Source: Flavobacteriales bacterium (GTDB lineage Bacteria; Bacteroidota; Bacteroidia; Flavobacteriales; TMED113). From it: a stretch of DNA of 64,000 bases. The DNA is taken from positions 46,195-110,194 of the forward strand of contig NZUK01000002.1 in assembly GCA_002701365.1 (NCBI GenBank), read 5' to 3'. Below the pieces are notes generated by a model. The model had not been told where the DNA came from and made no database searches. It worked only from the letters and a program-made list of their open reading frames with translations. Below are positions 1,582 to 28,012 of this stretch, one piece after another. Every line of letters begins with the position of its first letter. Position 1 is the stretch's first letter. The translations under genes and the position numbers were made by a program.

Positions 1582-1585
1582 TGTT

Positions 1586-1969: not shown

Positions 1970-2531
1970 ATTTGTGAAAATTTTTGGATTAAGTCCCTGG
2001 TTTTTTGTTTTTATTCTTGTGTGCCTTGATCAAGGCTTGAAGTTTTTTGTTAAATCTAGTTTTTATATTGGTGAACAACGGGAGATTTTTAACTGGTTTT
2101 CTCTTTATTTTGTTGAAAACAATGGTTTTGCTTTTGGTTATGAATTCTTTGGCGCGTGGGGAAAACTGCTTTTAACTACTGTTAGAATAGTTTTTGTTTT
2201 TGTTCTTTTTAAATGGGTGGTGAAATTATTAAAAGCTGGACTAAATAAATTTGTTTTTCTGGCTTTTTTGTTAGTTTTTTCTGGGGCAATTGGTAATATT
2301 GTTGACAGTGTTTTTTATGGCGTTTTTTATGGTTATGCTCCTTTGTTTTTTGGTAAAGTTGTAGACATGTTTTACTTCCCTTTGTTTTCTGGAACATACC
2401 CTGGTTGGGTGCCTTTTTTCGGTGGCAAAGATTTTCTTTTTTTTAAGTATATTTTTAATCTTGCAGACTCTTATATTACGTGCGGGGCCGTTCTTTTGCT
2501 TATTTTTTACAATCGTGTTCCTGTTAAATAA
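1944..2531 (+). CDS. lspA: Lipoprotein signal peptidase (signal peptidase II)
   Basis: Multi-TM protein with motifs NNGFAFG, GAIGNIVDSVFYG and FNLADS. It shows classical linkage to ileS and overlaps the preceding gene by 26 nt. Confidence 0.85.
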   Translation: MMRKINRNRFVKIFGLSPWFFVFILVCLDQGLKFFVKSSFYIGEQREIFNWFSLYFVENNGFAFGYEFFGAWGKLLLTTVRIVFVFVLFKWVVKLLKAGLNKFVFLAFLLVFSGAIGNIVDSVFYGVFYGYAPLFFGKVVDMFYFPLFSGTYPGWVPFFGGKDFLFFKYIFNLADSYITCGAVLLLIFYNRVPVK

Positions 2532-2567
2532 TAGAGTTGTTTTCTCTCTTTTATCTCTTTGTTTTTT

Positions 2568-2575
2568 TATATTTG
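2568..2575 (+). promoter_or_regulatory. Candidate Bacteroidota -7 box (TAnnTTTG) upstream of hppA
   Basis: TATATTTG lies 32 nt upstream of the hppA ATG (2608), in the only spacer between lspA and hppA. I saw no convincing -33 TTTG at canonical spacing. Confidence 0.3.
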
Positions 2576-2607
2576 CCCAACTTGAATAAATTAATCTTAT
2601 TTGTATT

Positions 2608-4785
2608 ATGGAATTTTTAACTAGTAATCTTATTTATATTGCTCCTCTTCTTGGTTTAGTGGGTTTAATTGTTATGTTTTTTCAATCTTCTTGGGTTTCT
2701 AAACAGGACCCTGGAGATAAAAAAATGGTTGAACTTTCGGATCATATTGCCAAGGGGGCTATGGCTTTTTTAGTCGCTGAGTGGAAGGTTTTGTCTGTGT
2801 TTGCTGTATTTGCTGCCACCGTCTTGGCCTGGTCAGGAACCTTAATAGAAACCTCTTCTCCTGTTATTGCTATTGCTTTTTTGATTGGTGCTTTTTTTTC
2901 AGCACTAGCAGGTTATTTTGGCATGAAAATTGCGACCAAGGCAAACGTTAGAACAACTCAGGCTGCTAGAACAAGTCTATCGAAGGCTTTAAAGGTTTCT
3001 TTTACCGGTGGTTCTGTAATGGGTTTAGGTGTTGCGGGTTTAGCTGTAATGGGCTTAGGTGGATTGTTTATTTTATTTTATAATATTTATGTTGTAAGTG
3101 TTGGAGGAAGTGTAACGGGCCTTGAGATGGTTAAGGCTTTAGAGGTTCTTGCTGGGTTTTCTTTGGGCGCAGAGTCAATCGCTTTGTTTGCTCGTGTAGG
3201 AGGAGGCATTTACACAAAGGCTGCGGATGTTGGCGCCGACCTAGTTGGTAAAGTGGAGGCTGGTATTCCTGAAGATGATCCAAGAAACCCTGCCACTATT
3301 GCTGATAATGTTGGTGACAATGTTGGCGATGTTGCGGGAATGGGAGCAGATCTTTTTGGCTCATATGTTGCAACAATTTTAGCAACAATGGTTTTGGGTC
3401 AAGAAATATCTTCAGTTGATAACTTTGGGGGTATTGCTCCTATTTTATTGCCTTTGGTTATTGCTGGTTTAGGTTTAATATTTTCTATAATTGGAACTTT
3501 TTTTGTTAGAATTCGATCTGAAGAAGGATCTGTGCAAAGTGCGCTTAATCTTGGTAATTGGCTGTCTATTTTGTTTACTTTTATTGCCTCTTATTTTCTA
3601 ACACAGTGGATGCTTCCTGAGACGATGGAAATTAGGGGGGTTGTTTTTTCTTCCATAAGTGTTTTTTGGGCAATTGCTACGGGTCTTATTGTTGGTGCTT
3701 TAATGTCTATAATAACAGAATACTACACTTCTATGGGGCGTAGGCCCGTAGACTCTATTATTCATCAGTCTTCAACAGGTCATGCAACTAATATTATAGG
3801 TGGCCTGGCTGTTGGTATGGAATCAACCGTTTTACCCACCTTGGTGTTGGCGGCCGGAATATATGTTTCTTTTTTGTTTGCAGGACTTTATGGTGTGGCT
3901 ATTGCTGCTGCTGGCATGATGGCAACAACAGCTATGCAGTTGGCTATTGATGCTTTTGGGCCAATAGCAGATAATGCTGGCGGTATTGCAGAGATGAGTG
4001 GTTTGCCCAAGGAGGTTCGTGAAAGAACAGATAATTTAGATGCTGTCGGAAACACTACCGCTGCCGCCGGAAAGGGCTTTGCGATTGCTTCTGCCGCCCT
4101 AACGGCCTTGGCTCTATTTGCGGCGTTTGTTGGTTTGGCCGGAATTGATTCAATAGATATATATAAAGCGGATGTTCTTGCGGGACTGTTTGTTGGGGGC
4201 ATGATCCCGTTCATTTTTTCTTCGTTGGCAATTGCCGCTGTGGGGCGCGCTGCCATGGACATGGTGAAAGAGGTGCGAAGACAATTTAAAGAAATTCCTG
4301 GTATTATGGAAGGAAAGGCTACTCCTGAATATGAAAAATGTGTTGAAATTTCAACAAAAGCTTCTATTAGAGAAATGATTCTTCCTGGAGCTATTCCTTT
4401 GGTTGTTCCTGTTGTTGTTGGTTTTTGTTTTGGCCCTGAGGTTTTAGGTGGTCTTTTGGCTGGTGTTACTGTTTCTGGTGTGTTAATGGGTATTTTTCAA
4501 AATAATGCCGGGGGAGCCTGGGACAATGCTAAAAAATCTATAGAGGCTAGTGGTGAAAAAGGATCGGAATCTCACAAGGCGTCTGTTACTGGAGACACTG
4601 TTGGTGACCCTTTTAAAGACACCTCTGGTCCATCTATGAATATTCTTATTAAATTAATGAGCATTGTTTCTTTGGTTATTGCTCCTCATATTTGTGAAAA
4701 AGACAATGGTCACGGCTCTGTTGAAGATAGTCCCGGTGTTGAGTTGTCCTATGAAGATGTTGAAGAAGATGTTATTAATTATTAA
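2608..4785 (+). CDS. hppA: Membrane-bound ion-translocating pyrophosphatase (K+-dependent type)
   Basis: 725 aa with many TM segments. Signature motifs include [24 protein letters not shown] and [25 protein letters not shown] carries Ala at the K+-dependence determinant. Confidence 0.95.
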
Positions 4786-5749
4786 TTAAATAGTCTAGTA
4801 TTTGAATGGCATTTGTTGCCGCTCCTTTTCTTAATGGGTCGGCAACAACCCACATGTTGAATGTGTTTTTTTGAGAGAAATCCTCTCTTATTCTGGAAAC
4901 AAAAACCTCGTTTTTTCCTCTTACCTCTGTGGGTGTTTTATAGTTTTTTCCTTGCTCAACAATAACTCCGTTTTGTTTTTTTAAAAGTTGTATTAATTGC
5001 TTTTTTGTTGTCTTTTTTTTAAGCTCAATATTAACACTTTCTCCGTGTCCACCAAGAGTTGGAACCCTAACTGCGGTTGCTGTTATTTTTATATTAGAAT
5101 TAAGAATTTTATTTGTTTCTTTTATTATTTTTTCCTCTTCTTTTGTGTAGTCGTTTTCACAAAAATCATCACACTTTGGAATAACATTTCTGTGTATTTT
5201 ATTTTTATATACTTTTTCTTTAGGTTCTTCTTTTTTTTCTTCTTTCTTTAATTGTTCTACTGCCTTTAGTCCTGTTCCAAGCACAGACTGGTATGTTGAC
5301 ACTACCATTCGCTTTATTCCTACTTTTTTTTGTATAATAGCAATTGCCATTATTAACTGTATTGTTGAACAGTTTGGGTTTGATATTATTTTATCTTTTT
5401 TTGATATTATTTTTCCGTTTATTTCTGGAACTATTAATTTTATGTTTTTATCCATTCTAAAGGCCGAAGAATTATCTATGACTATTGCCCCTATTTTATT
5501 GAATTTTTTTGCATATTTTTTTGAAGCCTGTGCCCCTGCCGAAAATAACGCGTGTGTAGGATTTTGTTTTAATGCTTGGTCTACTGAAACGACCTTGTAT
5601 GTTTTATTTTTATAGGTTATTTTTTTTCCCTTGCTTTTTTCTGTAGCAACAAAAATTACTTTTTTAATGGTTTTGTTTTTTTTTTCTTCTAAAATTTTTA
5701 TAATTTCTTTTCCAACTAAACCTGTGGCGCCTAAAATTGTTAATATCAT
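4775..5749 (-). CDS. asd: Aspartate-semialdehyde dehydrogenase
   Basis: N-terminal Rossmann motif ILGATGLVG, active-site NPNCSTIQL, plus FSAGAQAS and GGHGESVNIE. The protein is very Lys-rich and the gene AT-rich. Its 3' end overlaps the hppA 3' end convergently by 11 nt. Confidence 0.85.
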   Translation of the reverse strand: MILTILGATGLVGKEIIKILEEKKNKTIKKVIFVATEKSKGKKITYKNKTYKVVSVDQALKQNPTHALFSAGAQASKKYAKKFNKIGAIVIDNSSAFRMDKNIKLIVPEINGKIISKKDKIISNPNCSTIQLIMAIAIIQKKVGIKRMVVSTYQSVLGTGLKAVEQLKKEEKKEEPKEKVYKNKIHRNVIPKCDDFCENDYTKEEEKIIKETNKILNSNIKITATAVRVPTLGGHGESVNIELKKKTTKKQLIQLLKKQNGVIVEQGKNYKTPTEVRGKNEVFVSRIREDFSQKNTFNMWVVADPLRKGAATNAIQILDYLINN

Positions 5750-5795
5750 AAACCGTTTGTTATAAATAATCCAAGAAATTTAAATATTTATTTTA

Positions 5796-7538
5796 ATGTT
5801 TTCTAAAGCTTTATTATTAAAATCTAAAAAACTTCCTAACAAAACTGGTGTTTATATGTTTTTAAATAATAAAAAAGTATTATATGTCGGTAAATCTAAA
5901 AAAATTAAAACCCGCGTTAGTTCTTATTTTCAATCAGATTTAAAAAAAGACCAATTAATTATTTCTTCATCTAATAATATTAAATATCTTCTTGTTGATT
6001 CAGAGGAGGATTCTCTTTTTTTAGAAAATAACTTAATAAAAAAACACAAACCTAAATACAATCTTTTATTAAAAGATGATAAAAACTTTCCTTGGATATG
6101 TATAAAAAATGAAAGGTTTCCTCGTGTTTTTATTTCTAGAAAAAAAGAAAACAATAATGATTTTTATTTTGGGCCCTATATAAATAACCGTATTTTAAAA
6201 AAACTACTTGAAATTGTTTTTGATTTTTACCCGGTTAGATCTTGTAATTTTAATCTTTCTAAAAAGAATATTTTATCTAAAAAATACACGGTTTGTTTAG
6301 ATTATCATTTAAAAAAATGTTTTGGTCCTTGTGAAGGTTATCAAAGTGAAAAAGATTATTATAAAAATATTTCTTCCATCAAACTACTTTTAGAGGGAAG
6401 GTATTCTTCTTTCTTAAAAATAATTAAAAAAGAGCTTGAGTTTTGTTCAAAAATGCTTCTTTTCGAAAGATGTGAAAGTTTATATAATTTAATAAATAAA
6501 ATCAACTATTTAAAAAGTAAAAGTATTATTGTTTCTGTTAAAAGCATTGATTTAGATTGTTTTTATATTTTAAAAATTAATAATTTTTACTATATAAATT
6601 TTATAAGAATAATAGAGGGTTCTGTTCTTTTTATAAATAACTATAAATTTAAAAATGAATTTTATTTTTCAGAAGAAGATGTTTTAAGAAGTTTTATTAA
6701 AAAAGTATTTATAAATTATAATAGCGTTTCTAAAAACTTAATTTCTAATATTAATATTGATTCTTTTTTTAATAGTCGTGTTTTTGTACCTAAAAGAGGT
6801 TATAAAAAAAATATCCTTGATTTATCTAAAAAAAATATCCTTGAATATATTGGTTCCAAAAATCCTAAATTTGATATTTCTATTTTAATTAATTTAAAAA
6901 AATACTTGAATCTTAAAAATACTCCCTTTATTATTCACTGTTTTGATATTTCTAATTTAAATGGAACAAACACCACTGCTTCTTGTATTGTTTTTAAGAA
7001 TGGAAAACCTTTAAAATCTGAATATAGGTCTTATAAATTAAACTCTGTATTTGGTCCTGATGATTATTTATCTCTCTCAGAAGCTGTAGAAAAAAAATAT
7101 AAAAAATTTAAAAATATTCCTGATTTAATAGTAATAGATGGAGGGAAAGGTCAATTAAATACAGTATTAGAAAAATTTAAAAAATTAAATATTATTAAAA
7201 AAGATATAATAAGTATAGCTAAAAAAGAAGAAATAATTTTTTTAAGTGATAATAAAAAGGTTGTTTTAAATAAAAAAAGCGAAGAGTTAAAGTTAATTCA
7301 GTATATAAGAAATGAAGCTCATCGATTTTGTTTAAAACATCATAGGGTTTTAAGAAATAAAAACTTTATTAATACAGAGTTAAATAATATAAAAGGAATA
7401 GGTAATAAAACAATATTTGAATTATTAAATAATTATAAAACATTAAAAAATATAAAAAATTGTTCTAAAAAAGATTTAATAGGTTTTGTTGGTTTAAAAA
7501 AAGGAAATATTATATATAAACATTTTAATAAAAAATAA
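5796..7538 (+). CDS. uvrC: Excinuclease ABC subunit C
   Basis: GIY-YIG N-terminus (GVYMF..VLYVGKSKKIKTRVSSYF), a UVR-like segment, an endonuclease region (HCFDISNLNG, VIDGGKGQLN) and a C-terminal HhH (LNNIKGIGNKT). The gene is extremely AT-rich. Confidence 0.85.
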   Translation: MFSKALLLKSKKLPNKTGVYMFLNNKKVLYVGKSKKIKTRVSSYFQSDLKKDQLIISSSNNIKYLLVDSEEDSLFLENNLIKKHKPKYNLLLKDDKNFPWICIKNERFPRVFISRKKENNNDFYFGPYINNRILKKLLEIVFDFYPVRSCNFNLSKKNILSKKYTVCLDYHLKKCFGPCEGYQSEKDYYKNISSIKLLLEGRYSSFLKIIKKELEFCSKMLLFERCESLYNLINKINYLKSKSIIVSVKSIDLDCFYILKINNFYYINFIRIIEGSVLFINNYKFKNEFYFSEEDVLRSFIKKVFINYNSVSKNLISNINIDSFFNSRVFVPKRGYKKNILDLSKKNILEYIGSKNPKFDISILINLKKYLNLKNTPFIIHCFDISNLNGTNTTASCIVFKNGKPLKSEYRSYKLNSVFGPDDYLSLSEAVEKKYKKFKNIPDLIVIDGGKGQLNTVLEKFKKLNIIKKDIISIAKKEEIIFLSDNKKVVLNKKSEELKLIQYIRNEAHRFCLKHHRVLRNKNFINTELNNIKGIGNKTIFELLNNYKTLKNIKNCSKKDLIGFVGLKKGNIIYKHFNKK

Positions 7539-7839
7539 TGTTAATAAAATTTAATTATACCAGTTAATTTATTAACAATAATTTGACTCTTTTTTTTAAA
7601 AAAAAATAATAATTAATTTTATTAAAATTTAATAAAAAATATTAGTGCCTTATTAACATTGTTATTAATAATATTTAAATAACATATTTTATATTTTATT
7701 ATTATTTTAATTATAAAATTTGTTTATATAAATCATATTTAGATTTTTTTTTATTGTTAATATTATTTAATAATTAAAAAAACCAAATATTATTAAATTA
7801 AAAATTACACTTATTAACATTATATATATATATATAATA
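7539..7839. other. Near-pure A/T convergent intergenic spacer
   Basis: By my hand count there are 24 G/C in 301 nt. It lies between the 3' ends of uvrC (+) and the beta-helix gene (-). It contains T8A9 (about 7590-7606) and (TA)8 tracts. It is the largest gene-free spacer seen in the window. Confidence 0.8.
7821..7836. repeat. (TA)8 dinucleotide microsatellite
   Basis: The sequence tatatatatatatata is read directly. It lies just 3' of the stop codon of the 7840..8994 gene. Confidence 0.9.
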
Positions 7840-8994
7840 TTAATATTTTAAATATTTTATATTATATATAGTGTTTATATTTACTCCTAAATTAGTGTTG
7901 TTATTACCAGATCTTAGTGCTGGTGAATTATTATTTAAATTATAATTAAAATTTATTGAGTTAATGTATTCAGGATTTCCTAAAATATTATAATAACCTT
8001 TTAATATATTATTATTAGATAAACAATAAGAGTTTATAATATTATAATTATTAATATCAAAATCTTCGTTATTATAAGAATATATGTTATTTTTTGATAT
8101 TATATTATTATTAGTTTTTAAACTATTATTAGTTTTTATAGCAATATTATTTATATCAAAATTATTATTAACAATATAAAATATAGAATTATTATTTATT
8201 TCTAATGCTGTATTATTTTTTATAAATAAATTATTATAAATTTTATTAAAACCAGTTTTATTATTAATTGTTAAAGAATTATTATTATTAAAAAAAACGT
8301 TATTAATTATATTAGTATTATTACAATTATTAATTAATAAACCAGAATTATTAAAAATCAAATTATTATTTAAATTTAAATTTTTTAAAGAGTTAAATTT
8401 TAAATTTTTAGAATTATTAAAAACACAACCATTTAAATTTAATGTAGAATTATTAATACTTATAAGTGTATTATAGAAATAAGAATTATTAAAAATTAAA
8501 GAAGAGTTATTTAATTCTAAAACAGAATTATTAATAATAGAATTATTAATTTTAAAGTCGGATTTTTCAATATTAAAATCTACATTTTTTATAAAACAAT
8601 TATTTAAAAAAAAACTACTATTATTTTTTAAATAAAAAACACTTTCTTTTTTAGAATAAATAAAAACATTATAATATTTTTCATAATTTTTTAATTCTGA
8701 AACGTTAAAAAAAAACAAAGAATCTATATTACTTTCACCTATAATTAAAGTTCCATTATTTATAATTTGAGCAGAATTTTTTAAAAATAATTCTACCCCA
8801 TTTTTTAAAACAAGAGTTTTGTTTTTAGGAATAATTAAATCTTTTTTAATAATATATTTTTTTTTAGATTTTTCTAAATAACTAATATTATTAATAGTTT
8901 TTAAATTAGAACTTTTTATCCAACCATCTTTATTTATAGAAATACTATTATTACACGAATAAATTAAAAACAAAATAAAAAAAAATCTATACAT
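7840..8994 (-). CDS. Asn-rich parallel beta-helix (PbH1-like) repeat lipoprotein
   Basis: Lipobox-like N-terminus (FILFLIYSC). There is a periodicity of about 20-22 aa in NNx[IF]xNN motifs (LIFNNSGLLINNCNNTNIINNVFFNNNNSLTINN), typical of right-handed beta-helix repeats. My hand count gives about 103 Asn in 384 aa. It overlaps the upstream ABC gene by 8 nt. Confidence 0.6.
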   Translation of the reverse strand: MYRFFFILFLIYSCNNSISINKDGWIKSSNLKTINNISYLEKSKKKYIIKKDLIIPKNKTLVLKNGVELFLKNSAQIINNGTLIIGESNIDSLFFFNVSELKNYEKYYNVFIYSKKESVFYLKNNSSFFLNNCFIKNVDFNIEKSDFKINNSIINNSVLELNNSSLIFNNSYFYNTLISINNSTLNLNGCVFNNSKNLKFNSLKNLNLNNNLIFNNSGLLINNCNNTNIINNVFFNNNNSLTINNKTGFNKIYNNLFIKNNTALEINNNSIFYIVNNNFDINNIAIKTNNSLKTNNNIISKNNIYSYNNEDFDINNYNIINSYCLSNNNILKGYYNILGNPEYINSINFNYNLNNNSPALRSGNNNTNLGVNINTIYNIKYLKY

Positions 8995-10552
8995 TTTTTT
9001 TAAAATTAGAATCTGAAATTAATAATTTTGTATAGTATTTTCTATTATTAGAAAATAAATTTTTTGTTTTAAAACTATCAATAATAAGACCCTTTTTTAA
9101 AACAATAATTTTATCACACAAATAATAAATAGAATTAATATCATGAGAAATAAAAATAACAGTAATATTTAGTTTTTTATTTATAAAATATATCAAATTT
9201 AATATTGAAAATTGTGTTTCTATGTCTAATGCAGAAATAGACTCGTCAAAAACAATAATTTTAGGACTAGAAGCAAGAACACGAGCAATCGAAACCCTTT
9301 GTTTTTGACCCCCTGAAAGCTCATGAGGAAATCTATTTATTAAGGAAGTGTCTAAAGAAACAAACTTAAAAAGTTCTTTATCAGAGGTGTTAGTTTTATA
9401 TAGTTTTATAATCTCATTAACACTATCTCCAACAGTATATTTAGGGTTGAAAGTAAGAAAAGGATCTTGATATACCATTTGAACAGAAGATAAAAGAGAA
9501 AAAACAGAATCATTGTAATAAAAATCACCAGAATAATTTTTTTCGATACCACACAAAATTCTTCCAAGTGTTGTTTTTCCAGAACCAGAACCTCCAACAA
9601 CACCCAAACAATCACCACCAGAGATTTTTAGATTAATATTTTTTAAGGCAGTAAATTTTTTATTATTCTTTACATAAGAAAGGCTCACATTTTTTAAATC
9701 AAAGAGTTTTAATTTTTTTAAAAGAAGCGAGTTGTTTAAATTAAAATTAGATAAAGAAAAAGAGGTATCTATTTTTTTTTCTCGGATTTTATTTAAAATT
9801 TTATTTAAAGAAACAAGGTGCTCCACGGGCTTATTAGGTTTATTTTCAACAAAAAAACGGTCCTTAAAAACAATAACACGATCAGAGTAAAAATTTATTA
9901 AATCAAGATTGTGACTAATTAAAACAACAGAGAGATTTCTGGTTTTTTTTAAACTTAAAATAAGATCTAAAACCTCTTTTTGAACAGAGGGGTCTAAAGA
10001 CGTTGTTGGCTCATCAGCAATAAGTAGAACTGGCTCAGAAGCAAGAGCAATAGCTATTACAACTCTTTGTTTTTGTCCCCCCGAAAGTTCATGAGGAAAT
10101 GAATTAAAAACTTTTTCAGGGTTAGTAATACCAACCTCTTTTAAAACAACTAAACAATTTTTTTTTAAGTTACCTTTCTTTAATAAATAAAAAACTTCAC
10201 TCAACTGTTGACCGCAGGTTAAAACGGGATTTAAACTTGTAGCCGGGTCTTGAAAAACAAGAGAAATAAAGCGTAGGCGAAAATCATTCCAGTCAGATTT
10301 TTTTTTATTCAAAAGATTAAAAAAGGGTTTTTTTTGTTTTTTAAAAACAAAGGCCCGGTCTGCAGAACACTTAAAAACAGATCTGTTTAACAGGCCTAGA
10401 AGAAATAAAGAAAAAACCGACTTTCCTGATCCAGAATCACCAAAAAGCCCAACAATCTCACCAAAACGAACATTAAAATCAGAGCTACAAACGAGACTAT
10501 TACTACCCGCCGAAATAGATAAATTCTTTATATCAACAACAAAATCGGACAT
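8987..10552 (-). CDS. ABC transporter ATP-binding protein with two fused ATPase domains (Dpp/Opp/YejF-like)
   Basis: Two Walker A motifs (GDSGSGKS, GGSGSGKT), two LSGGQKQR signatures and two Walker B motifs (LLIADEPT, IIVFDES). There are no TM segments and no permease gene nearby. Confidence 0.85.
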   Translation of the reverse strand: MSDFVVDIKNLSISAGSNSLVCSSDFNVRFGEIVGLFGDSGSGKSVFSLFLLGLLNRSVFKCSADRAFVFKKQKKPFFNLLNKKKSDWNDFRLRFISLVFQDPATSLNPVLTCGQQLSEVFYLLKKGNLKKNCLVVLKEVGITNPEKVFNSFPHELSGGQKQRVVIAIALASEPVLLIADEPTTSLDPSVQKEVLDLILSLKKTRNLSVVLISHNLDLINFYSDRVIVFKDRFFVENKPNKPVEHLVSLNKILNKIREKKIDTSFSLSNFNLNNSLLLKKLKLFDLKNVSLSYVKNNKKFTALKNINLKISGGDCLGVVGGSGSGKTTLGRILCGIEKNYSGDFYYNDSVFSLLSSVQMVYQDPFLTFNPKYTVGDSVNEIIKLYKTNTSDKELFKFVSLDTSLINRFPHELSGGQKQRVSIARVLASSPKIIVFDESISALDIETQFSILNLIYFINKKLNITVIFISHDINSIYYLCDKIIVLKKGLIIDSFKTKNLFSNNRKYYTKLLISDSNFKKNV

Positions 10553-11707
10553 TTATGAAAAATCTTTAATAACCATTCGAATAATAAAGTCGAGGCTGTT
10601 TGTTAACATATAGTTTTCGATATTTTCAAAACCATCCTCAGACCTTCCTAAACGAACAAAAACAACATTTAATTCAGGAATAAAAACAACATATTGACCT
10701 AAAAAACCTCTAGCATAGTAAATAGTGTGATTTAAAACGCTAGCCGCCCACCACCCGTTTGAATAAAAATCAACTTGTTTGCTTGGATTTTCTCCATTAA
10801 TCAACAAAGGAGCAGACAACAACCAATTAAAATAACCTTCAGAAATAACACCCCTCCCAGAAGACAACATAAGTAAACCAATTTTTGAAAAATCACGAGC
10901 ACTACTATTAAAGCAGCAAAAGGTTTTTTCAAACCCATTTTTTGAATCAAGAGACCAGGCGGCATTGTTTGATGCTCCAATTTTTGACCACAAAACCTCA
11001 CTAGCAAAATCAGAAACACTTTTGCCAGTAGACCTGCTTAAAATAAAACCAAGTAGTTGAGTGTTTCCGCTGTTATAACGATAGGTAACACCAGGCGCCT
11101 CAGTAAAACCCCGCCTTAACAAAACACTAAAAAGATCATCACCATAATAAGCCTTTGCTGTTACACTTATCGGTTTTTTATAATTTTCTAACCAGTCGAA
11201 ACCCGAAGACATGTTTAATAAATGACGAATTTTCACATCGTGATTTTTATAAGGAGAAAGCTCTGGAAGAAAATCAAAAATACTTTGATTAACACTTTTA
11301 ATATATCCACTATCTATAGCACAACCAACCAACAAGGACACAATGCTTTTTGCAATAGAAAAAGAGTTGCTCAAAGAGTCTAACCCACCATCATCCCAGT
11401 ACTTTTCTAAACGAACACTATCGTCTTTAATAACTAAAAACGCAGAAGTTTCAATAGAGTTTAACATATTGAGTAAAGAGTCGTTTTCTAAAGAGTCAAG
11501 GTAGTTTGAGGCCAAGGGCAAAGGCTTAGGACTAGGGGCTAAAACAGACCGAGTATTAAAAAAGTTAAAATCATCGATTTGAGCAGAGGTTTCGCCCCTC
11601 AGATAAGTTTGTTTAATTCCTGGAAATAAATAAAAAAGATCAAAAACAACAACACAGAAGCATGCACAAAAAATAAAGAATAAAAAAAAACGGTTTTTCA
11701 AAATCAA
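10553..11707 (-). CDS. Serine hydrolase, beta-lactamase class C / PBP-related family
   Basis: N-terminal TM or signal segment and an S-x-x-K motif (FSIAKS). Length and layout are typical of beta-lactamase-related serine hydrolases. It has a TTG start overlapping the lipB stop and abuts the ABC gene start. Confidence 0.7.
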   Translation of the reverse strand: MILKNRFFLFFIFCACFCVVVFDLFYLFPGIKQTYLRGETSAQIDDFNFFNTRSVLAPSPKPLPLASNYLDSLENDSLLNMLNSIETSAFLVIKDDSVRLEKYWDDGGLDSLSNSFSIAKSIVSLLVGCAIDSGYIKSVNQSIFDFLPELSPYKNHDVKIRHLLNMSSGFDWLENYKKPISVTAKAYYGDDLFSVLLRRGFTEAPGVTYRYNSGNTQLLGFILSRSTGKSVSDFASEVLWSKIGASNNAAWSLDSKNGFEKTFCCFNSSARDFSKIGLLMLSSGRGVISEGYFNWLLSAPLLINGENPSKQVDFYSNGWWAASVLNHTIYYARGFLGQYVVFIPELNVVFVRLGRSEDGFENIENYMLTNSLDFIIRMVIKDFS

Positions 11708-12381
11708 TCTACAATTTTACAATTAAAAACTTCTTGAAAACAGGACCTAAAGCTTTCTTCAACAGCTAAAAAATTAACGCTTTTTCCAAGCTCATTGTTT
11801 AAAGAGGTTACCCCCTTGTCTGTTATTCCACAAGGAATAATACTATTAAAATAAGACAAATCAACATCAACATTAAAAGCTAGACCATGCATAGTAACCC
11901 ACCGACTTGTTCTAACCCCCATGGCGCAAATTTTTTTGTAACCAACTTTTTGGTCCCCAAGCCAAACGCCCGTTGAATCATTAATTCGAAAGCCACTAAG
12001 GTTGTGTTTTTTTAAGACCAATATAACAACCTCCTCTAAAAAACGTAAATACTTATGAATGTCTGTAAAAAAATTATCTAAATCTAGTATTGGATAAATA
12101 ACAAGTTGCCCAGGGCCATGATAAGTTATATCCCCCCCCCGATTTATTTTATAAAAACTAGCATCACGACTTTTTAACCCCTCGCTGTTTAACAGCAAAT
12201 GTTCCGCTTTACCGCTTTTTCCTAGCGTGTATACATGGGGGTGTTGACAAAAAATAATATAATTTTCAGTTTTTAACCCCTCACGTTTTTTTTTAATAAT
12301 AGAGTTTAAAAGGTCTTCTTGAACACCCCAAGCCTCTTTAAAGTCTATAATTCCTAAATTTTTAAAAAAAACACTATTCAT
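11704..12381 (-). CDS. lipB: Lipoyl(octanoyl) transferase
   Basis: Motifs RGGDITYHGPGQLVIYP and KICAMGV, with the typical length of about 225 aa. Confidence 0.9.
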   Translation of the reverse strand: MNSVFFKNLGIIDFKEAWGVQEDLLNSIIKKKREGLKTENYIIFCQHPHVYTLGKSGKAEHLLLNSEGLKSRDASFYKINRGGDITYHGPGQLVIYPILDLDNFFTDIHKYLRFLEEVVILVLKKHNLSGFRINDSTGVWLGDQKVGYKKICAMGVRTSRWVTMHGLAFNVDVDLSYFNSIIPCGITDKGVTSLNNELGKSVNFLAVEESFRSCFQEVFNCKIVD

Positions 12382-12399
12382 TTCTAATATGAATATAAC

Positions 12400-12407
12400 T
12401 ATATTTG
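12400..12407 (+). promoter_or_regulatory. Candidate -7 box (TAnnTTTG) for lysS
   Basis: TATATTTG ends 20 nt before the GTG start of lysS, in the divergent lipB/lysS spacer. Confidence 0.4.
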
Positions 12408-12427
12408 GTTAATATTAATTTTAAGAC

Positions 12428-13939
12428 GTGGAAAAACATACAGAACAAGAAATAATAAGAAGAAATTCTTTAGAAAAAATAAAAGAAAAAGGCATAAATC
12501 CGTATCCGGCAGAAGAATATATAATAAGCACTAATAGCGCGGAAATAAAGTCAAATTTCTCACCCAAAGAAACCCCGCCCTTAAATATTAGTATTGCGGG
12601 TAGAATAATGGGACGTAGAATAATGGGTAAGGCTTCGTTTGTTGAAATAAAAGATGAAAAAGGAAGAATACAGGTATATGTAAATAGAGATGAAATTTGT
12701 CCTCAAGAAGATAAAACAATGTATAATGAAGTGTTTAAAAAATACTTAGACATAGGTGATATTATTGGAGTCACAGGAGATGTTTTTATAACAAAAGTCG
12801 GAGAGATAAGTGTAAAAGCTAAAACAATTAAAATTTTATCAAAATCATTAAAACCACTACCTATTGTAAAAATAGACTCAACAGGAGAAAAACACGATGA
12901 TTTTAAAAACACAGAACTTCGATACCGACAAAGATCACTAGACTTAATGGTTAACGATGACTCATGGAAAACTTTTGAAAAAAGAACACAACTAATAAAT
13001 AGCATTAGAAACATTTTAAACAAACAAGGATATATGGAAGTTGAAACACCCATCTTGCAACCAATTGCAGGTGGTGCTGCGGCAAGACCATTTATCACAC
13101 ACCACAACACCTTAGACATGCCTCTTTATTTAAGAATAGCTAATGAGCTATATTTAAAGAGGCTTATTGTTGGCGGAAAACATGGTGTTTATGAGTTTGC
13201 AAAAGATTTTAGAAACGAAGGAATGGATAGAACGCATAATCCAGAGTTCACAATGTTAGAATTTTATGTTGCCTACAAGGACTACAAGTGGATGATGGGT
13301 TTTATAGAAAAAATGTTTGAAAAAGTAGCAAAAGAAGTTTGTGGAGAAACAAAAATAAAATACGATAACCAAGAAATAGAATTAAAGGGGCCATATAAGA
13401 AAATTGCATTTTTTGATGCAATTCAAGAAAAAACAGGCCAAAATATTTCTAATATGACAAACGAAGAGCTAACAAGGTATTGTAAGTCTAAGAAAATAGA
13501 AACCAACAGCTCAATGGGTAGAGGGAAGCTTTTTGACTCGATTTTTGGAGAGTTTTGCGAAAAAGACTTAATACAACCAACATACATAACAGACTATCCA
13601 GTAGAAATGTCACCATTAACAAAAAAACATAGAGAAAAAAAGGGCCTTACAGAGAGATTTGAACTGTTTATAAATGGAAAGGAAATAGCAAATGCATATT
13701 CAGAACAAAACAACCCAATTGAACAAAGAAAAAGCTTTGAAGAGCAAGTAAAACTTTCCGAAAAAGGGGACGACGAAGCAATGTTAATAGACAATCACTT
13801 TTTAACGGCACTAGAATATGGAATGCCGCCAACATCCGGAATAGGCATAGGAATAGACAGGTTAACAATGCTATTAACAAACAAAAAAACAATTCAAGAT
13901 GTTTTGTTTTTTCCACAAATGAAACCAGAAAAAAAATGA
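12428..13939 (+). CDS. lysS: Lysyl-tRNA synthetase, class II
   Basis: GTG start. OB-fold N-domain, class II motif 2 region DFRNEGMDRTHNPEFTMLE and motif 3 GIGIGIDRLTMLL. Confidence 0.95.
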   Translation: MEKHTEQEIIRRNSLEKIKEKGINPYPAEEYIISTNSAEIKSNFSPKETPPLNISIAGRIMGRRIMGKASFVEIKDEKGRIQVYVNRDEICPQEDKTMYNEVFKKYLDIGDIIGVTGDVFITKVGEISVKAKTIKILSKSLKPLPIVKIDSTGEKHDDFKNTELRYRQRSLDLMVNDDSWKTFEKRTQLINSIRNILNKQGYMEVETPILQPIAGGAAARPFITHHNTLDMPLYLRIANELYLKRLIVGGKHGVYEFAKDFRNEGMDRTHNPEFTMLEFYVAYKDYKWMMGFIEKMFEKVAKEVCGETKIKYDNQEIELKGPYKKIAFFDAIQEKTGQNISNMTNEELTRYCKSKKIETNSSMGRGKLFDSIFGEFCEKDLIQPTYITDYPVEMSPLTKKHREKKGLTERFELFINGKEIANAYSEQNNPIEQRKSFEEQVKLSEKGDDEAMLIDNHFLTALEYGMPPTSGIGIGIDRLTMLLTNKKTIQDVLFFPQMKPEKK

Positions 13940-14355
13940 AAATAACAATAGGCTCAGATCATGCTGGCGTAGACTATAAATTAAAAATAAAAATACACCT
14001 AGAGAAACAAAACCACAAAGTAAAAGACGTGGGAACCTTTGGGAAAGATAGTGTTGATTATCCCGACTATGCTCACTTGGTGTCCAAAGATGTTTCAGAG
14101 CAAAAAAGTCTAGGTATATTGATATGTGGTAGTGGAAATGGCGTTAGTATGGCAGCAAACAAGCATAAAAACATAAGGGCCGCCCTTTGTTGGAATAAAG
14201 AAATATCAAAACTTGCAAGACAACATAATGACGCAAATATAATTTCACTTCCATCCAGGTTCCTCTCTGTAAAAGACTGTATAGAACTTGTGGAGGTGTT
14301 TATTAATGAGCCTTTTGAAGGAGGGCGTCATGAAAAAAGAGTAAAAAAAATTTAA
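13936..14355 (+). CDS. rpiB: Ribose-5-phosphate isomerase B
   Basis: KITIGSDHAGVDYK and ICGSGNGVSMAANK motifs in a 139-aa protein. It overlaps lysS by 4 nt. Confidence 0.9.
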   Translation: MKITIGSDHAGVDYKLKIKIHLEKQNHKVKDVGTFGKDSVDYPDYAHLVSKDVSEQKSLGILICGSGNGVSMAANKHKNIRAALCWNKEISKLARQHNDANIISLPSRFLSVKDCIELVEVFINEPFEGGRHEKRVKKI

Positions 14356-14358
14356 AAA

Positions 14359-15945
14359 ATGAAAAAAACAATAACAACAACAATAACAGCCTTATTATTA
14401 ATAACAAATATTGTTGGACAAACCCAATCAACAGTAATCAAGCGGGGCCTTTCCCCACAAAAAATAGGTGAGCAAATAACAAAAAAGGAACTAAAGAAAC
14501 ATATTTTAATTTTAGCCTCGGACTCTTTGGAAGGAAGAGAAGTGGGCAAGCCAGGAGAGTTAATGGCGGCAAACTATATCGCTAATCACTTTAAAAAAAT
14601 AGGAATACCACCATATAAAAACTCGACATACTACCAAGAAATACCCCTTCACCAAACAACAATAAAGGATGTTTATTTAAAAATAAACAACACAGAATTA
14701 AAATTCAAAAAAGAATTTTATACATATCCAAACTTTAATGAAACAGAAATAATAGAACAAGAAATTGTTTTTTTGGGCTACGGAATAGAATCAAAAAACT
14801 ACAACGATTACAATATAAATGTAGAAGGAAGAGTGATTGCGATTCTTAACGGGGAGCCCAAAAATGAACAAGGAAAATATATTGTTTCAGGGGGGGGGCA
14901 AAAAAGCCCAGAGTCTAATTGGAAGTTTAAGTTAAAAACAGCAAAATCTAAAGGAGTGAAGGCTGTTATCTTTATTTCAGAAAACTATGATGGCGACTAT
15001 GAAAAAGTAGAACACAAAATAGAACACCCAGGAGTTTCTTTAATGGACAAAGAAGACCCAGTACCATTTGTTTATGTGGGCGTAAAAACAGCAAATCTAA
15101 TTCTAGGAAAAAATAAATTAGAAAAAATAAAGAATAAAATAAAAACGAAACAAAGACCAATACATAAAAAAACACAAAACAGTATTGTTTTAAGAACACA
15201 AAATAATTCATCAAAGTTTACAGGAAAAAATGTACTAGGATTTATAGAGGGCTCGGATCCGGAATTAAAAAATGAAATTATTGTAATAACTGCTCACTAT
15301 GACCACATAGGCATTATTGATGGCCTGATCCATAACGGTGCAGACGACAATGCAACAGGAACGGCTGCTGTTTTAGAGATTGCTAAAGCCTTTCAAATGG
15401 CCAAAAAACTAGGTGTTAACTTTAAAAGAAGCATTTTGTGTATGCCAAATTCTGCAGAAGAAAAAGGATTATTAGGCTCCTATTACTACGTGGAAAACCC
15501 AGAGTTTCCAATAAACAACACAATAGCCTGTTTAAATGTAGACATGATAGGAAGAATGGACGAACTCCACCCAAAAGACAGTAATTATGTTTACCTAATT
15601 GGCGCAGACAAACTAAGCACAGATCTCCACAATATTTCAGAGTCAGCAAATAAAAAGCACGTAAAAATGGATATAGATTATACATTTAATGACCCAAAAG
15701 ATCCAAATAGATTTTATTATAGATCAGATCATTATAATTTTGCCAAAAAAAATATTCCATCAATATTTTATTTTAGCGGTGTCCATGAAGATTATCATAA
15801 ACACACTGATACGACAGAAAAAATAATATATGAAAAAGTTGAAAAAATAACGAAACTAATTTTCTACACAGCATGGGAGCTTGCTAATGCAACAGAACGC
15901 CCAAAGGTTGACAAAACCAACACATTTAATCTTAACAGGTATTAA
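14359..15945 (+). CDS. Secreted M28-family aminopeptidase with PA domain
   Basis: Signal peptide. Zinc-ligand regions HYDHIG, GADDNATGTAAVLE, EEKGLLGS and a later DH motif. Confidence 0.8.
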   Translation: MKKTITTTITALLLITNIVGQTQSTVIKRGLSPQKIGEQITKKELKKHILILASDSLEGREVGKPGELMAANYIANHFKKIGIPPYKNSTYYQEIPLHQTTIKDVYLKINNTELKFKKEFYTYPNFNETEIIEQEIVFLGYGIESKNYNDYNINVEGRVIAILNGEPKNEQGKYIVSGGGQKSPESNWKFKLKTAKSKGVKAVIFISENYDGDYEKVEHKIEHPGVSLMDKEDPVPFVYVGVKTANLILGKNKLEKIKNKIKTKQRPIHKKTQNSIVLRTQNNSSKFTGKNVLGFIEGSDPELKNEIIVITAHYDHIGIIDGLIHNGADDNATGTAAVLEIAKAFQMAKKLGVNFKRSILCMPNSAEEKGLLGSYYYVENPEFPINNTIACLNVDMIGRMDELHPKDSNYVYLIGADKLSTDLHNISESANKKHVKMDIDYTFNDPKDPNRFYYRSDHYNFAKKNIPSIFYFSGVHEDYHKHTDTTEKIIYEKVEKITKLIFYTAWELANATERPKVDKTNTFNLNRY

Positions 15946-17465: not shown

Positions 17466-17476
17466 AATCTATTTAA

Positions 17477-21445: not shown

Positions 21446-21450
21446 GGTAA

Positions 21451-22356: not shown

Positions 22357-22431
22357 ATAGTATTATCAAAACATATGGATAGTTCAAAAAATAAAATAAT
22401 TTTATATGCGTTTTCTTTTTAATATAAAAAA

Positions 22432-28011: not shown

Positions 28012-28012
28012 C

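What the first reader, a model, noticed from the sequence alone, without database searches (positions are those of the whole stretch)
7840..8994. Asn-saturated parallel beta-helix lipoprotein encoded at roughly 10% G+C
The 384-aa product starts with a lipobox (..LIYSC). It then consists almost entirely of turns of about 20-22 residues of the form NNx[IF]xNN, like PbH1 right-handed beta-helix repeats. My hand count is about 103 Asn, roughly one residue in four, almost all encoded by AAT. It is therefore both a plausible folded beta-solenoid with extreme Asn ladders and one of the most AT-biased coding regions one could expect in a free-living bacterium. It is the only clearly accessory gene in the trough. 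It is translationally coupled (8-nt overlap) to a permease-less ABC ATPase. Function is unknown; it could be surface adhesin-like, polysaccharide-binding or NosD-like.
Basis: partly seen in the sequence, partly recalled or inferred. Interest (0 to 1): 0.65.

Follow-up and report, generated by a model that had tools for sequence, protein, structure and literature searches.

The report
Asn-rich beta-helix lipoprotein in AT sink
This is a real, conserved envelope lipoprotein with a beta-helix fold, and it is one-quarter asparagine because it lies at the bottom of a narrow, evolutionarily conserved AT-rich mutational sink in a small (one related contig is 1.2 Mb) marine flavobacterial genome.

Summary
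ORF 7840-8994 (-) encodes 384 aa with 103 Asn (91 AAT) at 13.0% GC, begins with a lipobox, and overlaps the upstream ABC ATPase gene by 8 nt.

It is a genuine gene:
- The five other frames carry 18-97 stops.
- 23 full-length homologues share an invariant lipobox Cys.
- dN/dS is about 0.26.

AlphaFold gives a three-stranded solenoid (residues 109-320, pLDDT 86-95). All top Foldseek hits are right-handed beta-helices. Profile comparison links the family (99.8%, E 8e-28) to proteins that pass Pfam Beta_helix/NosD.

It is not accessory. The order lipB, beta-lactamase-fold gene, ABC ATPase, this gene, then convergent uvrC and asd is kept in every related marine Flavobacteriales locus found. The NosD-like pairing is not supported, because outgroup orthologues of the ATPase have no such neighbour.

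The main new result is the context. The V-shaped GC trough (0.35 to 0.10) is conserved in all relatives and cuts through housekeeping genes. It coincides with a sign switch of T/A skew at four-fold sites, which fades beyond about 36 kb. It centres on a 300-bp spacer packed with conserved TGTTAATAA boxes.

Biochemical function, and whether the site is an origin or a terminus, remain open.

The parts
7840..8994 (-). Gene for the 384-aa Asn-rich beta-helix lipoprotein (stop codon 7840-7842)
   Evidence: ORF; composition; 23 homologues; dN/dS 0.26-0.27; other frames closed
8953..8994 (-). Signal peptide with lipobox (residues 1-14, Cys14 codon 8953-8955)
   Evidence: The Cys is invariant in 24 sequences (listed there as C13 because the query lacked the start Met). 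PROSITE-type lipobox pattern in 18 of 24. Signal peptidase II gene lies in the window at 1944-2531.
8035..8670 (-). Beta-helix core, residues 109-320, about 10 coils of three strands, each strand followed by NN
   Evidence: AlphaFold pLDDT 86-95; Foldseek hits all right-handed beta-helices; hhalign 99.8% to Beta_helix-bearing relatives; Asn is 32.5% here
7843..8034 (-). C-terminal region, residues 321-384, with conserved SYCLSN...GYYN...NSPALRSGNNNxNLG...IKYLK(Y); modelled at low confidence
   Evidence: Invariant columns; pLDDT below 50; collinear with the C-terminal '...SPxIxAG...' motif of relatives; last codons AAA TAT TTA AA invariant at DNA level in 10 of 11 loci
8987..10552 (-). Fused double-NBD ABC ATPase (Dpp/Opp/YejF-like) with no permease nearby; overlaps the target start by 8 nt; GC falls from 0.33 to 0.22 along the gene towards the spacer
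10553..12381 (-). Upstream same-strand genes, a beta-lactamase-fold protein (10553-11707) and lipB (11704-12381); likely one operon with the ATPase and the target
   Evidence: Abutting or overlapping ORFs; Pfam; same order in all relatives
7539..7839 (.). 300-bp spacer between the convergent target and uvrC genes. GC is 7%. It holds positionally conserved TGTTAATAA/TTATTAACA boxes (exact copies at 7539-7547 +, 7569-7577 -, 7650-7658 -, 7811-7819 -) and a (TA)n run at 7820-7838. It is the centre of the GC trough and of the T/A skew switch.
   Evidence: Sequence; 4 of the 6 copies in the 64-kb window lie here; alignment of 10 loci; 24 copies in 3.2 kb of spacers against 9 in 186 kb elsewhere, with shuffles giving a mean of 1.0 and a maximum of 5
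5796..7538 (+). uvrC, convergent with the target, at 20% GC and 51% FYMINK residues
4775..5749 (-). asd (aspartate-semialdehyde dehydrogenase) on the edge of the trough. Its coding strand is the A-rich strand here, and the protein is Lys-rich (17% K).
4750..10000 (.). V-shaped GC trough, from about 0.33 at the flanks to 0.08-0.10 at the centre
   Evidence: z = -5.6 against the rest of the window; present in all related loci
1..36000 (.). Zone of local T/A asymmetry at four-fold degenerate sites. The + strand is T-rich left of 7.7 kb and A-rich right of it, whatever the gene strand. The effect decays with distance.
   Evidence: One search gives r = -0.41 at 7.8-22 kb and -0.03 (CI -0.075 to +0.003) beyond 36 kb.

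Best explanation
The ORF encodes a real lipoprotein restricted to one lineage. Shown or strongly supported: a signal peptidase II signal ending in an invariant Cys, followed by a right-handed parallel beta-helix of about ten coils. The family belongs to the Beta_helix/PbH1 (NosD-like, pectin-lyase-fold) superfamily. It is kept under purifying selection in a clade of small-genome marine Flavobacteriales (one related contig is 1.2 Mb), always as the last gene of lipB, beta-lactamase-fold gene, ABC ATPase, X, facing uvrC.

Its extreme composition is not a property of the gene's origin. It comes from the gene's position at the floor of a conserved, graded, strand-asymmetric AT mutational sink centred on the 300-bp spacer just 3' of the gene. 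The same sink drags uvrC to 20% GC and produces a GC and amino-acid gradient inside the ABC ATPase.

Inferred: under this pressure polar positions collapse onto Asn. Asn and Lys are the only hydrophilic residues with pure A/T codons, and Asn is what beta-helix turns and envelope proteins tolerate. Hydrophobic core positions stay as I, L or F, so the fold survives.

Inferred with low confidence (about 0.3): the mature protein is a membrane-anchored, non-catalytic glycan- or envelope-binding scaffold. No Asp, Glu, His or Arg is invariant in the family, and three Asp that are invariant in normal-composition relatives are lost.

Inferred: the sink reflects recurrent single-strand exposure of the strands whose 3' ends point at the spacer. 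That fits converging forks or break-and-resection at a terminus-like site. An origin is not excluded.
For: Real gene:
- 384 open codons against a maximum of 115 in shuffles, and the other five frames are closed.
- 23 full-length homologues at 35-51% identity, with an invariant Cys and conserved motifs.
- dN/dS is 0.26-0.27 in two close pairs, against 0.09-0.35 for neighbouring genes.

Fold and family:
- AlphaFold pTM is 0.76, and the core has pLDDT 86-95 with three strands per coil.
- The top 50 Foldseek PDB hits are all right-handed beta-helices, including AlgG, NosD, PL6 lyases and tailspikes.
- The family profile finds 1820 proteins at E below 1e-3. Ten distant hits that were tested all pass the Pfam Beta_helix gathering score, and most also pass NosD.
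- hhalign gives 99.8%, E 7.7e-28, over 342 columns.

Lipoprotein: lipobox pattern, and lspA lies in the window.

Not accessory: identical synteny in L001, L004-L013 and L016.

Positional cause:
- The trough is present in every related locus, falling to 0.09-0.16 from about 0.35.
- Orthologue GC is 11.9-18.7% and Asn 20-27%.
- GC and FYMINK grade along the ABC ATPase, 0.33 to 0.22 and 0.33 to 0.45.
- T/A skew at four-fold sites switches sign at the spacer in 10 of 10 loci, independent of gene strand.
- Outgroup loci show no trough.

Asn as the default polar residue: opposite the target's Asn, six normal-composition relatives have N, D, S, G, E, R or K, and I, L, V and F are depleted 3-5 fold.
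Against: - The window protein itself hits no Pfam or NCBIfam model, and only 5 of 24 family members reach E below 0.1 for Beta_helix. Membership therefore rests on profile and structure evidence.
- Foldseek TM-scores are modest (0.2-0.5), and the last 63 residues are unmodelled.
- uvrC is under similar AT pressure but has only 11% Asn and 16% Lys. Mutation alone therefore does not dictate 27% Asn; fold or compartment-specific tolerance has to be invoked.
- AAT is A-rich, whereas the gene's coding strand is T-rich at four-fold sites.
- There is no expression or lipidation evidence.
- Function is unsupported by any conserved context outside the clade.
- The nature of the sink is unresolved. No dif-like site was found. 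The box array looks origin-like. There is no measurable replichore-wide T/A skew against which to calibrate the polarity.
- NG86 dN/dS is approximate at this composition.
Confidence: 0.75

Rival explanations
1. The ORF is a low-complexity artefact: an accidentally open frame in AT-rich DNA, or a decaying pseudogene.
For: No direct Pfam or NCBIfam hit. Extreme low-complexity composition. The C-terminal 63 residues are modelled poorly.
Against: At this composition stop codons are frequent: shuffles give at most 115 open codons and the other five frames have 18-97 stops. The length (359-396 aa), the lipobox Cys and many motifs are conserved in 23 homologues. dN/dS is about 0.26. The beta-helix model is confident.
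Confidence: 0.02
2. The low GC marks a horizontally acquired accessory island carrying this gene.
For: GC is far below the genome mean. The family is confined to one clade, with a large gap to the next relatives.
Against: The trough is V-shaped and runs through uvrC, asd and the 3' half of the ABC ATPase. Gene order is identical in all relatives, whose neighbouring proteins are only 47-72% identical to the window's. Four-fold-site asymmetry extends for tens of kb.
Confidence: 0.03
3. The protein is a NosD-like periplasmic partner that works with the adjacent ABC ATPase as an ABC-coupled envelope machine.
For: Overlapping or abutting genes throughout the clade. NosD of NosDFY is among the best structural matches (7osf and 7o0y, E about 3e-4). 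Distant relatives pass Pfam NosD.
Against: There is no NosY-type permease, and none of the Pfam-annotated genes within 10 kb in the related loci is a nos gene. The ATPase is a fused double NBD of the Dpp/Opp family, not NosF-like. Its orthologues in Weeksellaceae and Vicingaceae have no beta-helix neighbour. A normal-composition lipoprotein relative has an unrelated context. NosD scores no better than AlgG, PL6 lyases or tailspikes. Within the clade the whole region is syntenic, so adjacency carries little information.
Confidence: 0.1
4. Asn saturation is adaptive, selected for the fold or for function (Asn ladders, glycan binding), and is not a by-product of local mutation pressure.
For: Asn sits regularly after each strand. 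Many Asn columns are invariant. uvrC has far less Asn at comparable GC. Relatives already have Asn at 21% of the matching positions.
Against: Normal-composition relatives with the same fold carry only 7-10% Asn. Third-position GC is 4-13% in all orthologues, and synonymous sites cannot be explained by selection on protein. Neighbouring unrelated genes show the same graded shift.
Confidence: 0.12
5. Context rival: the spacer is the chromosomal replication origin, not a terminus-like convergence point.
For: A 300-bp intergenic region at 7% GC has 5-7 positionally conserved 9-mers in both orientations. They match the DnaA-box consensus TTATNCACA at 8 of 9 positions. A (TA)n or (TAA)n run plus a short G-containing cluster lies beside one box. 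A strand-asymmetry switch lies exactly there. No dif was found. The atp operon and most genes at 22-44 kb point away from the site.
Against: The T-rich strands are those running 5'-to-3' towards the site, which by the classical rule (from my own knowledge) is the polarity of converging leading strands. Of 19 genes within about 22 kb, 15 point towards the site. There is no perfect DnaA box in the window, and no box in the spacers has the canonical CACA. No dnaA appeared among the window ORFs that were scanned or among the annotated genes of the related loci.
Confidence: 0.3

Closest known systems
Pfam Beta_helix (PF13229) / PbH1 repeat proteins of the pectin-lyase-fold clan, including NosD (PF05048)
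   Same: Three-stranded right-handed solenoid with coils of about 22 residues, the 'I.NN.F..N' repeat signature, and the C-terminal '...F.L...SPA...G' motif. Homology to members that pass the gathering score is 99.8% by hhalign.
   Different: The protein itself falls below every curated HMM threshold. It has 27% Asn against 7-10% in relatives. Three Asp invariant in the nearest normal-composition relatives are lost. It has a lipoprotein anchor rather than the T9SS C-terminal domain carried by several of the tested relatives.
NosD of the NosDFY(L) ABC complex (PDB 7osf, 7o0y)
   Same: A periplasmic beta-helix encoded next to an ABC ATPase, and a structural match at E about 3e-4.
   Different: No NosY permease, no nos genes among the annotated neighbours, an ATPase of a different family with two fused NBDs, and a pairing that is absent outside this clade.
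AT-pressure proteomes (FYMINK enrichment in AT-rich endosymbionts; Asn-rich proteins of Plasmodium falciparum). This comparison is from my own knowledge.
   Same: Mutational AT bias pushes proteins towards Phe, Tyr, Met, Ile, Asn and Lys. The target has 62.5% FYMINK and uvrC 51%, against 26-46% elsewhere in the window.
   Different: Here the pressure is local (a few kb) within a 33%-GC genome of an organism that appears to be free-living. It grades within single genes. The Asn lies in an ordered repeat fold rather than in disordered tracts.
Replication-associated strand compositional asymmetry and AT enrichment near the terminus (Lobry-type skews; Hendrickson and Lawrence 2007, cited in PMC3091885); the gradient of skew with single-strand exposure time in vertebrate mitochondrial DNA. 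The last comparison is from my own knowledge.
   Same: A sharp sign switch of strand asymmetry at neutral sites at one chromosomal point, with AT enrichment around it.
   Different: The asymmetry is in T against A with essentially no G against C component. It is very strong near the site (about 0.4-0.5) and fades to about zero by 36 kb instead of holding along a replichore. The GC trough is only about 5 kb wide. No dif resembling the predicted Flavobacteria dif sites was found.

Membership tests
Beta_helix / PbH1 right-handed parallel beta-helix superfamily | The protein itself reaches the curated HMM threshold (PF13229, PF05048) | tested here: not met
   No hit at E up to 1 for the window protein. 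NCBIfam gives none. Only 5 of 24 family members hit PF13229 at E below 0.1, best 6.4e-5.
Beta_helix / PbH1 right-handed parallel beta-helix superfamily | Significant profile-level homology to proteins that pass the family threshold | tested here: met
   The family profile finds proteins at E 1e-14 to 1e-24. All ten that were tested pass the PF13229 gathering score, and most pass PF05048. hhalign of A1 against A3 gives 99.8%, E 7.7e-28, over 342 columns.
Beta_helix / PbH1 right-handed parallel beta-helix superfamily | Three-stranded solenoid fold with coils of about 22 residues | tested here: met
   AlphaFold core pLDDT is 86-95, with strand triplets every 19-22 residues. All top PDB matches are right-handed beta-helices with probability about 1.0, although TM-scores are only 0.2-0.5. 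Handedness is inferred from the matches and was not measured.
Bacterial lipoprotein (signal peptidase II substrate) | N-terminal basic residue, hydrophobic stretch and lipobox ending in Cys | tested here: met
   PROSITE-type pattern in the window protein and in 18 of 24 homologues. The Cys is invariant. The non-matching sequences are truncated gene calls or have Asn at position -1.
Bacterial lipoprotein (signal peptidase II substrate) | Processing enzyme present; lipidation demonstrated | not testable with these tools
   lspA (Peptidase_A8) is present at 1944-2531. Lipidation and localisation need experiment.
NosDFY-type ABC-coupled beta-helix system | Adjacent NosF-type single-NBD ATPase and NosY permease, in a nos gene context | tested here: not met
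   The ATPase is a fused double NBD whose best matches are YejF, NikD/E and OppD/F. None of the Pfam-annotated genes within 10 kb in the related loci is a permease or a nos gene.
NosDFY-type ABC-coupled beta-helix system | Beta-helix and ATPase pairing conserved across lineages | tested here: not met
   The orthologous ATPase in Weeksellaceae and Vicingaceae contigs has no beta-helix neighbour.
Beta-helix polysaccharide lyase, hydrolase or epimerase (PL6, GH28, AlgG type) | Conserved catalytic acid/base or metal-binding residues | tested here: inconclusive
   No invariant Asp, Glu, His or Arg in the 24-sequence alignment. The invariant polar residues are Asn, K300, C323 and S356. Three Asp invariant in relatives are not kept. 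A Lys-based lyase mechanism cannot be excluded.
Type IX secretion cargo | C-terminal Por_Secre_tail domain | tested here: not met
   No PF18962 hit in the protein or its family, unlike several of the tested distant relatives.
Chromosome dimer resolution site dif (context) | 28-bp XerC/XerD site resembling predicted Flavobacteria dif (..TATAATTTATATTATGTAAAAT) | tested here: not met
   dif sequences were taken from the Kono et al. 2011 supplement. A position-weight scan of 10 loci found no conserved match in or beside the spacer.
Bacterial oriC (context) | Cluster of DnaA boxes (TTATNCACA) next to an AT-rich unwinding element at a skew switch | tested here: inconclusive
   No perfect box in the window. 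There is, however, a conserved cluster of TTATTAACA (8 of 9 match), enriched about 150-fold over the flanks, with a (TA)n run beside it. The skew switch is present but has terminus-like polarity.

The most novel reading that the evidence does not exclude
The spacer at 7539-7839 marks a fixed chromosomal site (terminus, origin or break site) that has generated a steep, strand-polar, AT-driving mutational gradient over about 20-30 kb on each side. This has persisted through the diversification of a whole family-level clade. It would be a localised form of replication- or repair-associated mutagenesis that, as far as I could find, has not been described in bacteria. The beta-helix lipoprotein at its floor is then a natural experiment showing that a folded, selected protein can persist at 12-19% GC and 20-27% Asn.
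Probability: 0.3. Interest if true: 0.85.

Novelty: new variant of a known kind. Interest (0 to 1): 0.62.

Why it matters
For protein science, this is a naturally occurring, selection-maintained beta-solenoid built from about six amino acids. It comes with a ready series of orthologues (20-27% Asn) and normal-composition relatives (7-10% Asn) for testing how far composition can drift before a fold fails.

For genome evolution, the context is the larger point. A conserved 5-kb GC trough cuts through housekeeping genes. It is tied to a local sign switch of T/A skew at neutral sites and to an array of conserved 9-mers. That would give a mapped, comparable site at which a position-specific mutational process can be studied in uncultured marine bacteria.

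It also shows that a local GC anomaly need not mean horizontal transfer.

Tried and rejected
- Direct Pfam and NCBIfam scans of the protein found nothing.
- Rfam on 4500-12500 found nothing.
- The intrinsic-terminator scan of 7300-9200 found none, and promoter-like matches were not above shuffles.
- No direct repeats were found in the spacer, and inverted repeats were no more than expected for 7%-GC DNA.
- A dif search with a matrix built from six predicted Bacteroidetes dif sites found no conserved hit. One recurrent hit about 1450 nt to the ABC side of the spacer centre is the ABC ATPase H-loop coding sequence.
- Perfect DnaA boxes are absent, and one-mismatch boxes are fewer than expected in the window.
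- G/C skew could not be used to tell origin from terminus. At four-fold sites it is about zero everywhere, and the raw skew follows gene orientation.
- The window's own proteins are not in the contig index.
- The contexts of outgroup ATPases and of a normal-composition lipoprotein relative gave no functional clue.
- Cluster names were uninformative.
- Literature searches for a described local trough at a terminus or origin in Flavobacteria, for a Bacteroidetes oriC motif, and for the 9-mer itself returned nothing relevant.
Full report
**1. The observation**

The ORF at 7840-8994 on the - strand is 384 aa.
- It contains 103 Asn (26.8%), encoded by 91 AAT and 12 AAC.
- GC is 13.0% overall: 13.5%, 19.5% and 6.0% at codon positions 1, 2 and 3.
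- It starts MYRFFFILFLIYSC, which fits a PROSITE-type lipobox pattern.
- It overlaps the stop of the upstream ABC ATPase ORF (8987-10552) by 8 nt.
- No ORF of 40 aa or more lies on the other strand.
- The five alternative frames hold 18-97 stop codons. In 2000 shuffles of the same DNA the longest open stretch was 115 codons, against 384 observed.

**2. A real, conserved gene**

A search of 5.8 billion proteins returned 23 full-length homologues at 35-51% identity, all from marine metagenomes or MAGs.
- The alignment has an invariant lipobox Cys and a set of invariant Asn spaced 22-23 residues apart.
- It also has a conserved tail, SYCLSN...GYYN...NSPALRSGNNNxNLG...IKYLK.
- A profile search of 1.84 billion cluster representatives shows a compact family, with about ten full-length 50%-identity clusters at E 1e-80 to 1e-128. 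A wide gap follows, and then 1820 distant hits.
- For two closely related pairs of loci, dN/dS is 0.26 and 0.27. Neighbouring genes give 0.09-0.35. The Nei-Gojobori estimate is approximate at this composition.

**3. Fold and family**

*Structure.* AlphaFold2 with the 24-sequence alignment gives pTM 0.76. Residues 109-320 have pLDDT 86-95 and form strand triplets repeating every 19-22 residues. The last 63 residues are unmodelled.

*Structural matches.* The best 50 Foldseek matches in the PDB are all right-handed parallel beta-helices. They include AlgG, NosD, PL6 lyases, GH28, GH87 and GH110 enzymes, phage tailspikes and adhesins. Probabilities are near 1, but TM-scores are only 0.2-0.5.

*Sequence-family evidence.*
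- The protein itself hits nothing in Pfam or NCBIfam.
- Only 5 of 24 family members reach E below 0.1 for PF13229.
- Ten distant relatives found by the family profile all pass the PF13229 gathering score, and most pass PF05048 NosD.
- A profile-profile comparison with nine of them gives 99.8% probability, E 7.7e-28, collinear over 342 columns from signal peptide to C-terminal motif.

Membership of the Beta_helix/PbH1 superfamily is therefore established at the profile and structure level, although curated thresholds are not met by the sequence alone.

*Where the Asn sits.* Within the core each strand is followed by NN. This gives Asn autocorrelation peaks at lags 6 and 13 that exceed the 99th percentile of shuffles.

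**4. What the Asn replaces**

Six relatives of the same length and architecture (lipoprotein signal plus beta-helix) have 7-10% Asn.
- Opposite the target's Asn they carry N (21%), D (11%), S, G, E, R, K and T.
- I, L, V and F are depleted 3-5 fold at those positions.

The hydrophobic skeleton is therefore retained, and polar positions have collapsed onto Asn.

Three Asp that are invariant in nine relatives (in the PDAIE and DDAIDLN motifs) are not conserved in the target family. That family has no invariant Asp, Glu, His or Arg at all. This argues, weakly, for a binding or scaffold role rather than catalysis.

**5. Not accessory, and not a NosD partner**

*Synteny.* In every related locus the gene order is the same: lipB, beta-lactamase-fold gene, double ABC ATPase, this gene, then convergent uvrC, asd, H+-PPase, lspA, dksA and ileS.
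- This holds in L001, L004-L013 and L016. Six of these are species representatives labelled 'Flavobacteriales bacterium' MAGs, and one is a 1.2-Mb long-read contig.
- The neighbouring proteins in these loci are only 47-72% identical to those of the window.

*The ATPase.*
- It is a fused two-NBD protein of the Dpp/Opp/YejF type.
- Clade orthologues are 50-99% identical, and the next relatives only 34-39%.
- In a Weeksellaceae and a Vicingaceae contig that orthologue has neither a beta-helix neighbour nor an adjacent permease.
- A normal-composition lipoprotein relative (P0066) lies in an unrelated context.

Tight coupling to the ATPase is general in the clade, but the details vary: an 8-nt or 4-nt overlap, a 1-nt gap or a 23-nt gap. 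Because the whole region is syntenic, adjacency says little about function.

**6. The composition is positional**

*The trough.*
- The window averages 32.8% GC. A single V-shaped trough runs from about 4.75 to 10 kb, with 250-nt minima of 8-9%.
- The lowest 500-nt window lies 5.6 SD below the rest of the window.
- It covers the 5' edge of asd, all of uvrC (20% GC), the target, and the 3' half of the ATPase.
- Inside the ATPase, GC falls from 0.33 to 0.22 and FYMINK residues rise from 33% to 45%, quarter by quarter, towards the spacer.

*Conservation.*
- The same trough, from about 0.35 down to 0.09-0.16, is present in all related loci.
- The orthologues have 11.9-18.7% GC and 20-27% Asn.
- Outgroup loci show no trough.

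A horizontally acquired island cannot explain a graded trough through conserved housekeeping genes in a conserved gene order.

**7. A local strand-asymmetry switch**

*The switch.* At four-fold degenerate sites the T-versus-A skew changes sign exactly at the spacer between the target and uvrC.
- Left of it, the + strand is T-rich. Genes on the + strand show +0.48 to +0.64, and asd on the - strand shows -0.32 on its own strand.
- Right of it, the - strand is T-rich. Genes on the - strand show +0.25 to +0.59, and + strand genes show -0.15 to -0.46.

The skew therefore follows position, not transcription direction.

*Conservation.* The switch is present in 10 of 10 loci. The strand-referenced means are +0.26 to +0.40 on one side and -0.23 to -0.40 on the other. 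GC at four-fold sites falls from 0.24 to 0.08 at the centre.

*Local extent.* Separating the coding effect from the positional effect gives these values:

| Region of window | Positional T/A effect (r) | 95% bootstrap interval |
|---|---|---|
| 7.8-22 kb | -0.41 | -0.46 to -0.29 |
| beyond 36 kb | -0.03 | -0.075 to +0.003 |

G-versus-C skew at these sites is about zero throughout.

*Interpretation (inference).* The T-rich strands are those whose 3' ends point at the spacer. That is the polarity of converging leading strands, or of the 3' tails left by resection of a break at the spacer. A transversion-type bias is needed to give T/A skew without G/C skew. One candidate is depurination or oxidised guanine on exposed single strands, read as T, acting together with C-to-T deamination.

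**8. The spacer**

- The 300 bp between the two stop codons (7539-7839) are 7% GC.
- Aligned across ten loci, they contain 5-7 positionally conserved boxes with the core TGTTAATAA/TTATTAACA. A (TA)n or (TAA)n run follows the target's stop codon directly.
- Four of the six exact copies in the 64-kb window lie in the spacer.
- Over all loci there are 24 copies in 3.2 kb of spacer, against 9 in 186 kb elsewhere. Dinucleotide-preserving shuffles of the spacers give a mean of 1.0 and a maximum of 5.
- The box equals the DnaA-box consensus TTATNCACA at 8 of 9 positions but never has the canonical CACA. No perfect DnaA box occurs in the window.
- No match to the predicted Flavobacteria dif sites of Kono et al. 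2011 (PMC3025954 supplement) was found.
- Rfam, terminator and repeat scans were empty.

*Terminus or origin.*
- Polarity and local gene orientation favour a terminus-like convergence point: 15 of 19 genes within about 22 kb point at the spacer.
- The box array next to an easily melted run looks origin-like.
- The atp operon and most genes at 22-44 kb point away from the site.

I put terminus-like at about 0.45, origin at about 0.3 and another fixed break or barrier site at about 0.25. The question is decidable from the 1.2-Mb contig, which I could not read beyond 10 kb either side of the gene.

**9. Why Asn rather than Lys**

| Gene | GC | Asn | Lys |
|---|---|---|---|
| uvrC | 20% | 11% | 16% |
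| asd (A-rich strand) | 29% | 7% | 17% |
| target | 13% | 27% | 9% |

The target's N/(N+K) ratio of 0.76 resembles that of the window's other envelope or secreted proteins: a TonB-dependent receptor, PorZ and a CotH T9SS cargo give 0.58-0.78.

Mutation pressure therefore supplies the AT codons. The fold and the cell compartment decide which AT-codon residue is tolerated. This step is inference.

**10. Verdict**

The 'accessory' and 'NosD-like' readings are not.

As a protein it is a new, lineage-restricted, compositionally extreme member of a known superfamily, and its biochemical function is still unknown. My best guess, at about 0.3, is a membrane-anchored non-catalytic glycan or envelope-binding scaffold.

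The more unusual finding is the conserved, local, strand-polar AT sink and its box-filled centre. I did not find this described in the literature searches I ran. Those searches cover open-access papers only.

Noticed in passing
window 7539-7839: The 300-bp convergent spacer at 7% GC has 5-7 positionally conserved TGTTAATAA/TTATTAACA boxes. They are enriched about 150-fold over the flanks across 10 loci. A (TA)n run follows directly after the target's stop codon. The region is origin-like in architecture, yet no factor could be assigned.
   Followed up: partly
window 1-36000 and loci L001, L004, L006-L012: T-versus-A skew at four-fold sites switches sign at the spacer in all loci. In the window it decays from about 0.4-0.5 to about zero by 36 kb. 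G-versus-C skew at the same sites is about zero.
   Followed up: yes
window 62131-62150: One TTATTAACA box, followed by a shorter ATTAACAA match, lies just 3' of tRNA-Cys (62010-62081) and upstream of an ORF starting near 62299. This is the only copy of the 9-mer in the window away from the trough.
   Followed up: no
window 8987-10552 and P0168-P0204: The clade's double-NBD ABC ATPase (mostly 510-521 aa) lacks the oligo_HPY C-terminal domain that is present in the 553-607-aa orthologues of other Bacteroidota. The nearest outgroup orthologues are only 34-39% identical, which suggests a deeply separated lineage.
   Followed up: partly
window 50916-54320: A 1134-aa CotH + LTD + Por_Secre_tail (T9SS cargo) protein. 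At least one distant relative of the target's beta-helix (P0039, about 1100 aa) carries it as a domain between CotH and LTD, and several similar-length hits may be the same. The window's CotH protein has no Beta_helix hit.
   Followed up: no
L016 (ENA ERZ28548060 agincourt1_1__contig_14317_pilon, 263602-284681): A 1,202,166-bp long-read contig carries the locus at about 274.8 kb. This implies a genome of about 1.2 Mb for this clade. Its rseP, M28, asd and ileS gene calls are split or shortened, probably by homopolymer frameshift errors.
   Followed up: partly
window 7843-7860 and the 3' ends of the orthologues: The codons AAA TAT TTA AA(A/T), encoding K-Y-L-K/N, close to the 3' end of the gene are identical at the DNA level in 10 of 11 loci, although the proteins are only 37-54% identical to the window's. 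A DNA-level constraint overlapping the gene end is possible.
   Followed up: partly
window 4775-5749 versus 5796-7538: asd lies on the locally A-rich strand and is Lys-rich (17% K, 7% N). Genes on the T-rich strand are relatively richer in Asn and Phe. The local strand asymmetry is therefore visible at the amino-acid level.
   Followed up: partly
window 26134-31010, 43599-49348, 54378-56246: An atp operon on the + strand, a TonB-dependent receptor, PorZ (a T9SS component), and mnmG/gidA about 47 kb from the spacer. No dnaA, xerC/D or ftsK was found among the ORFs that were scanned.
   Followed up: partly
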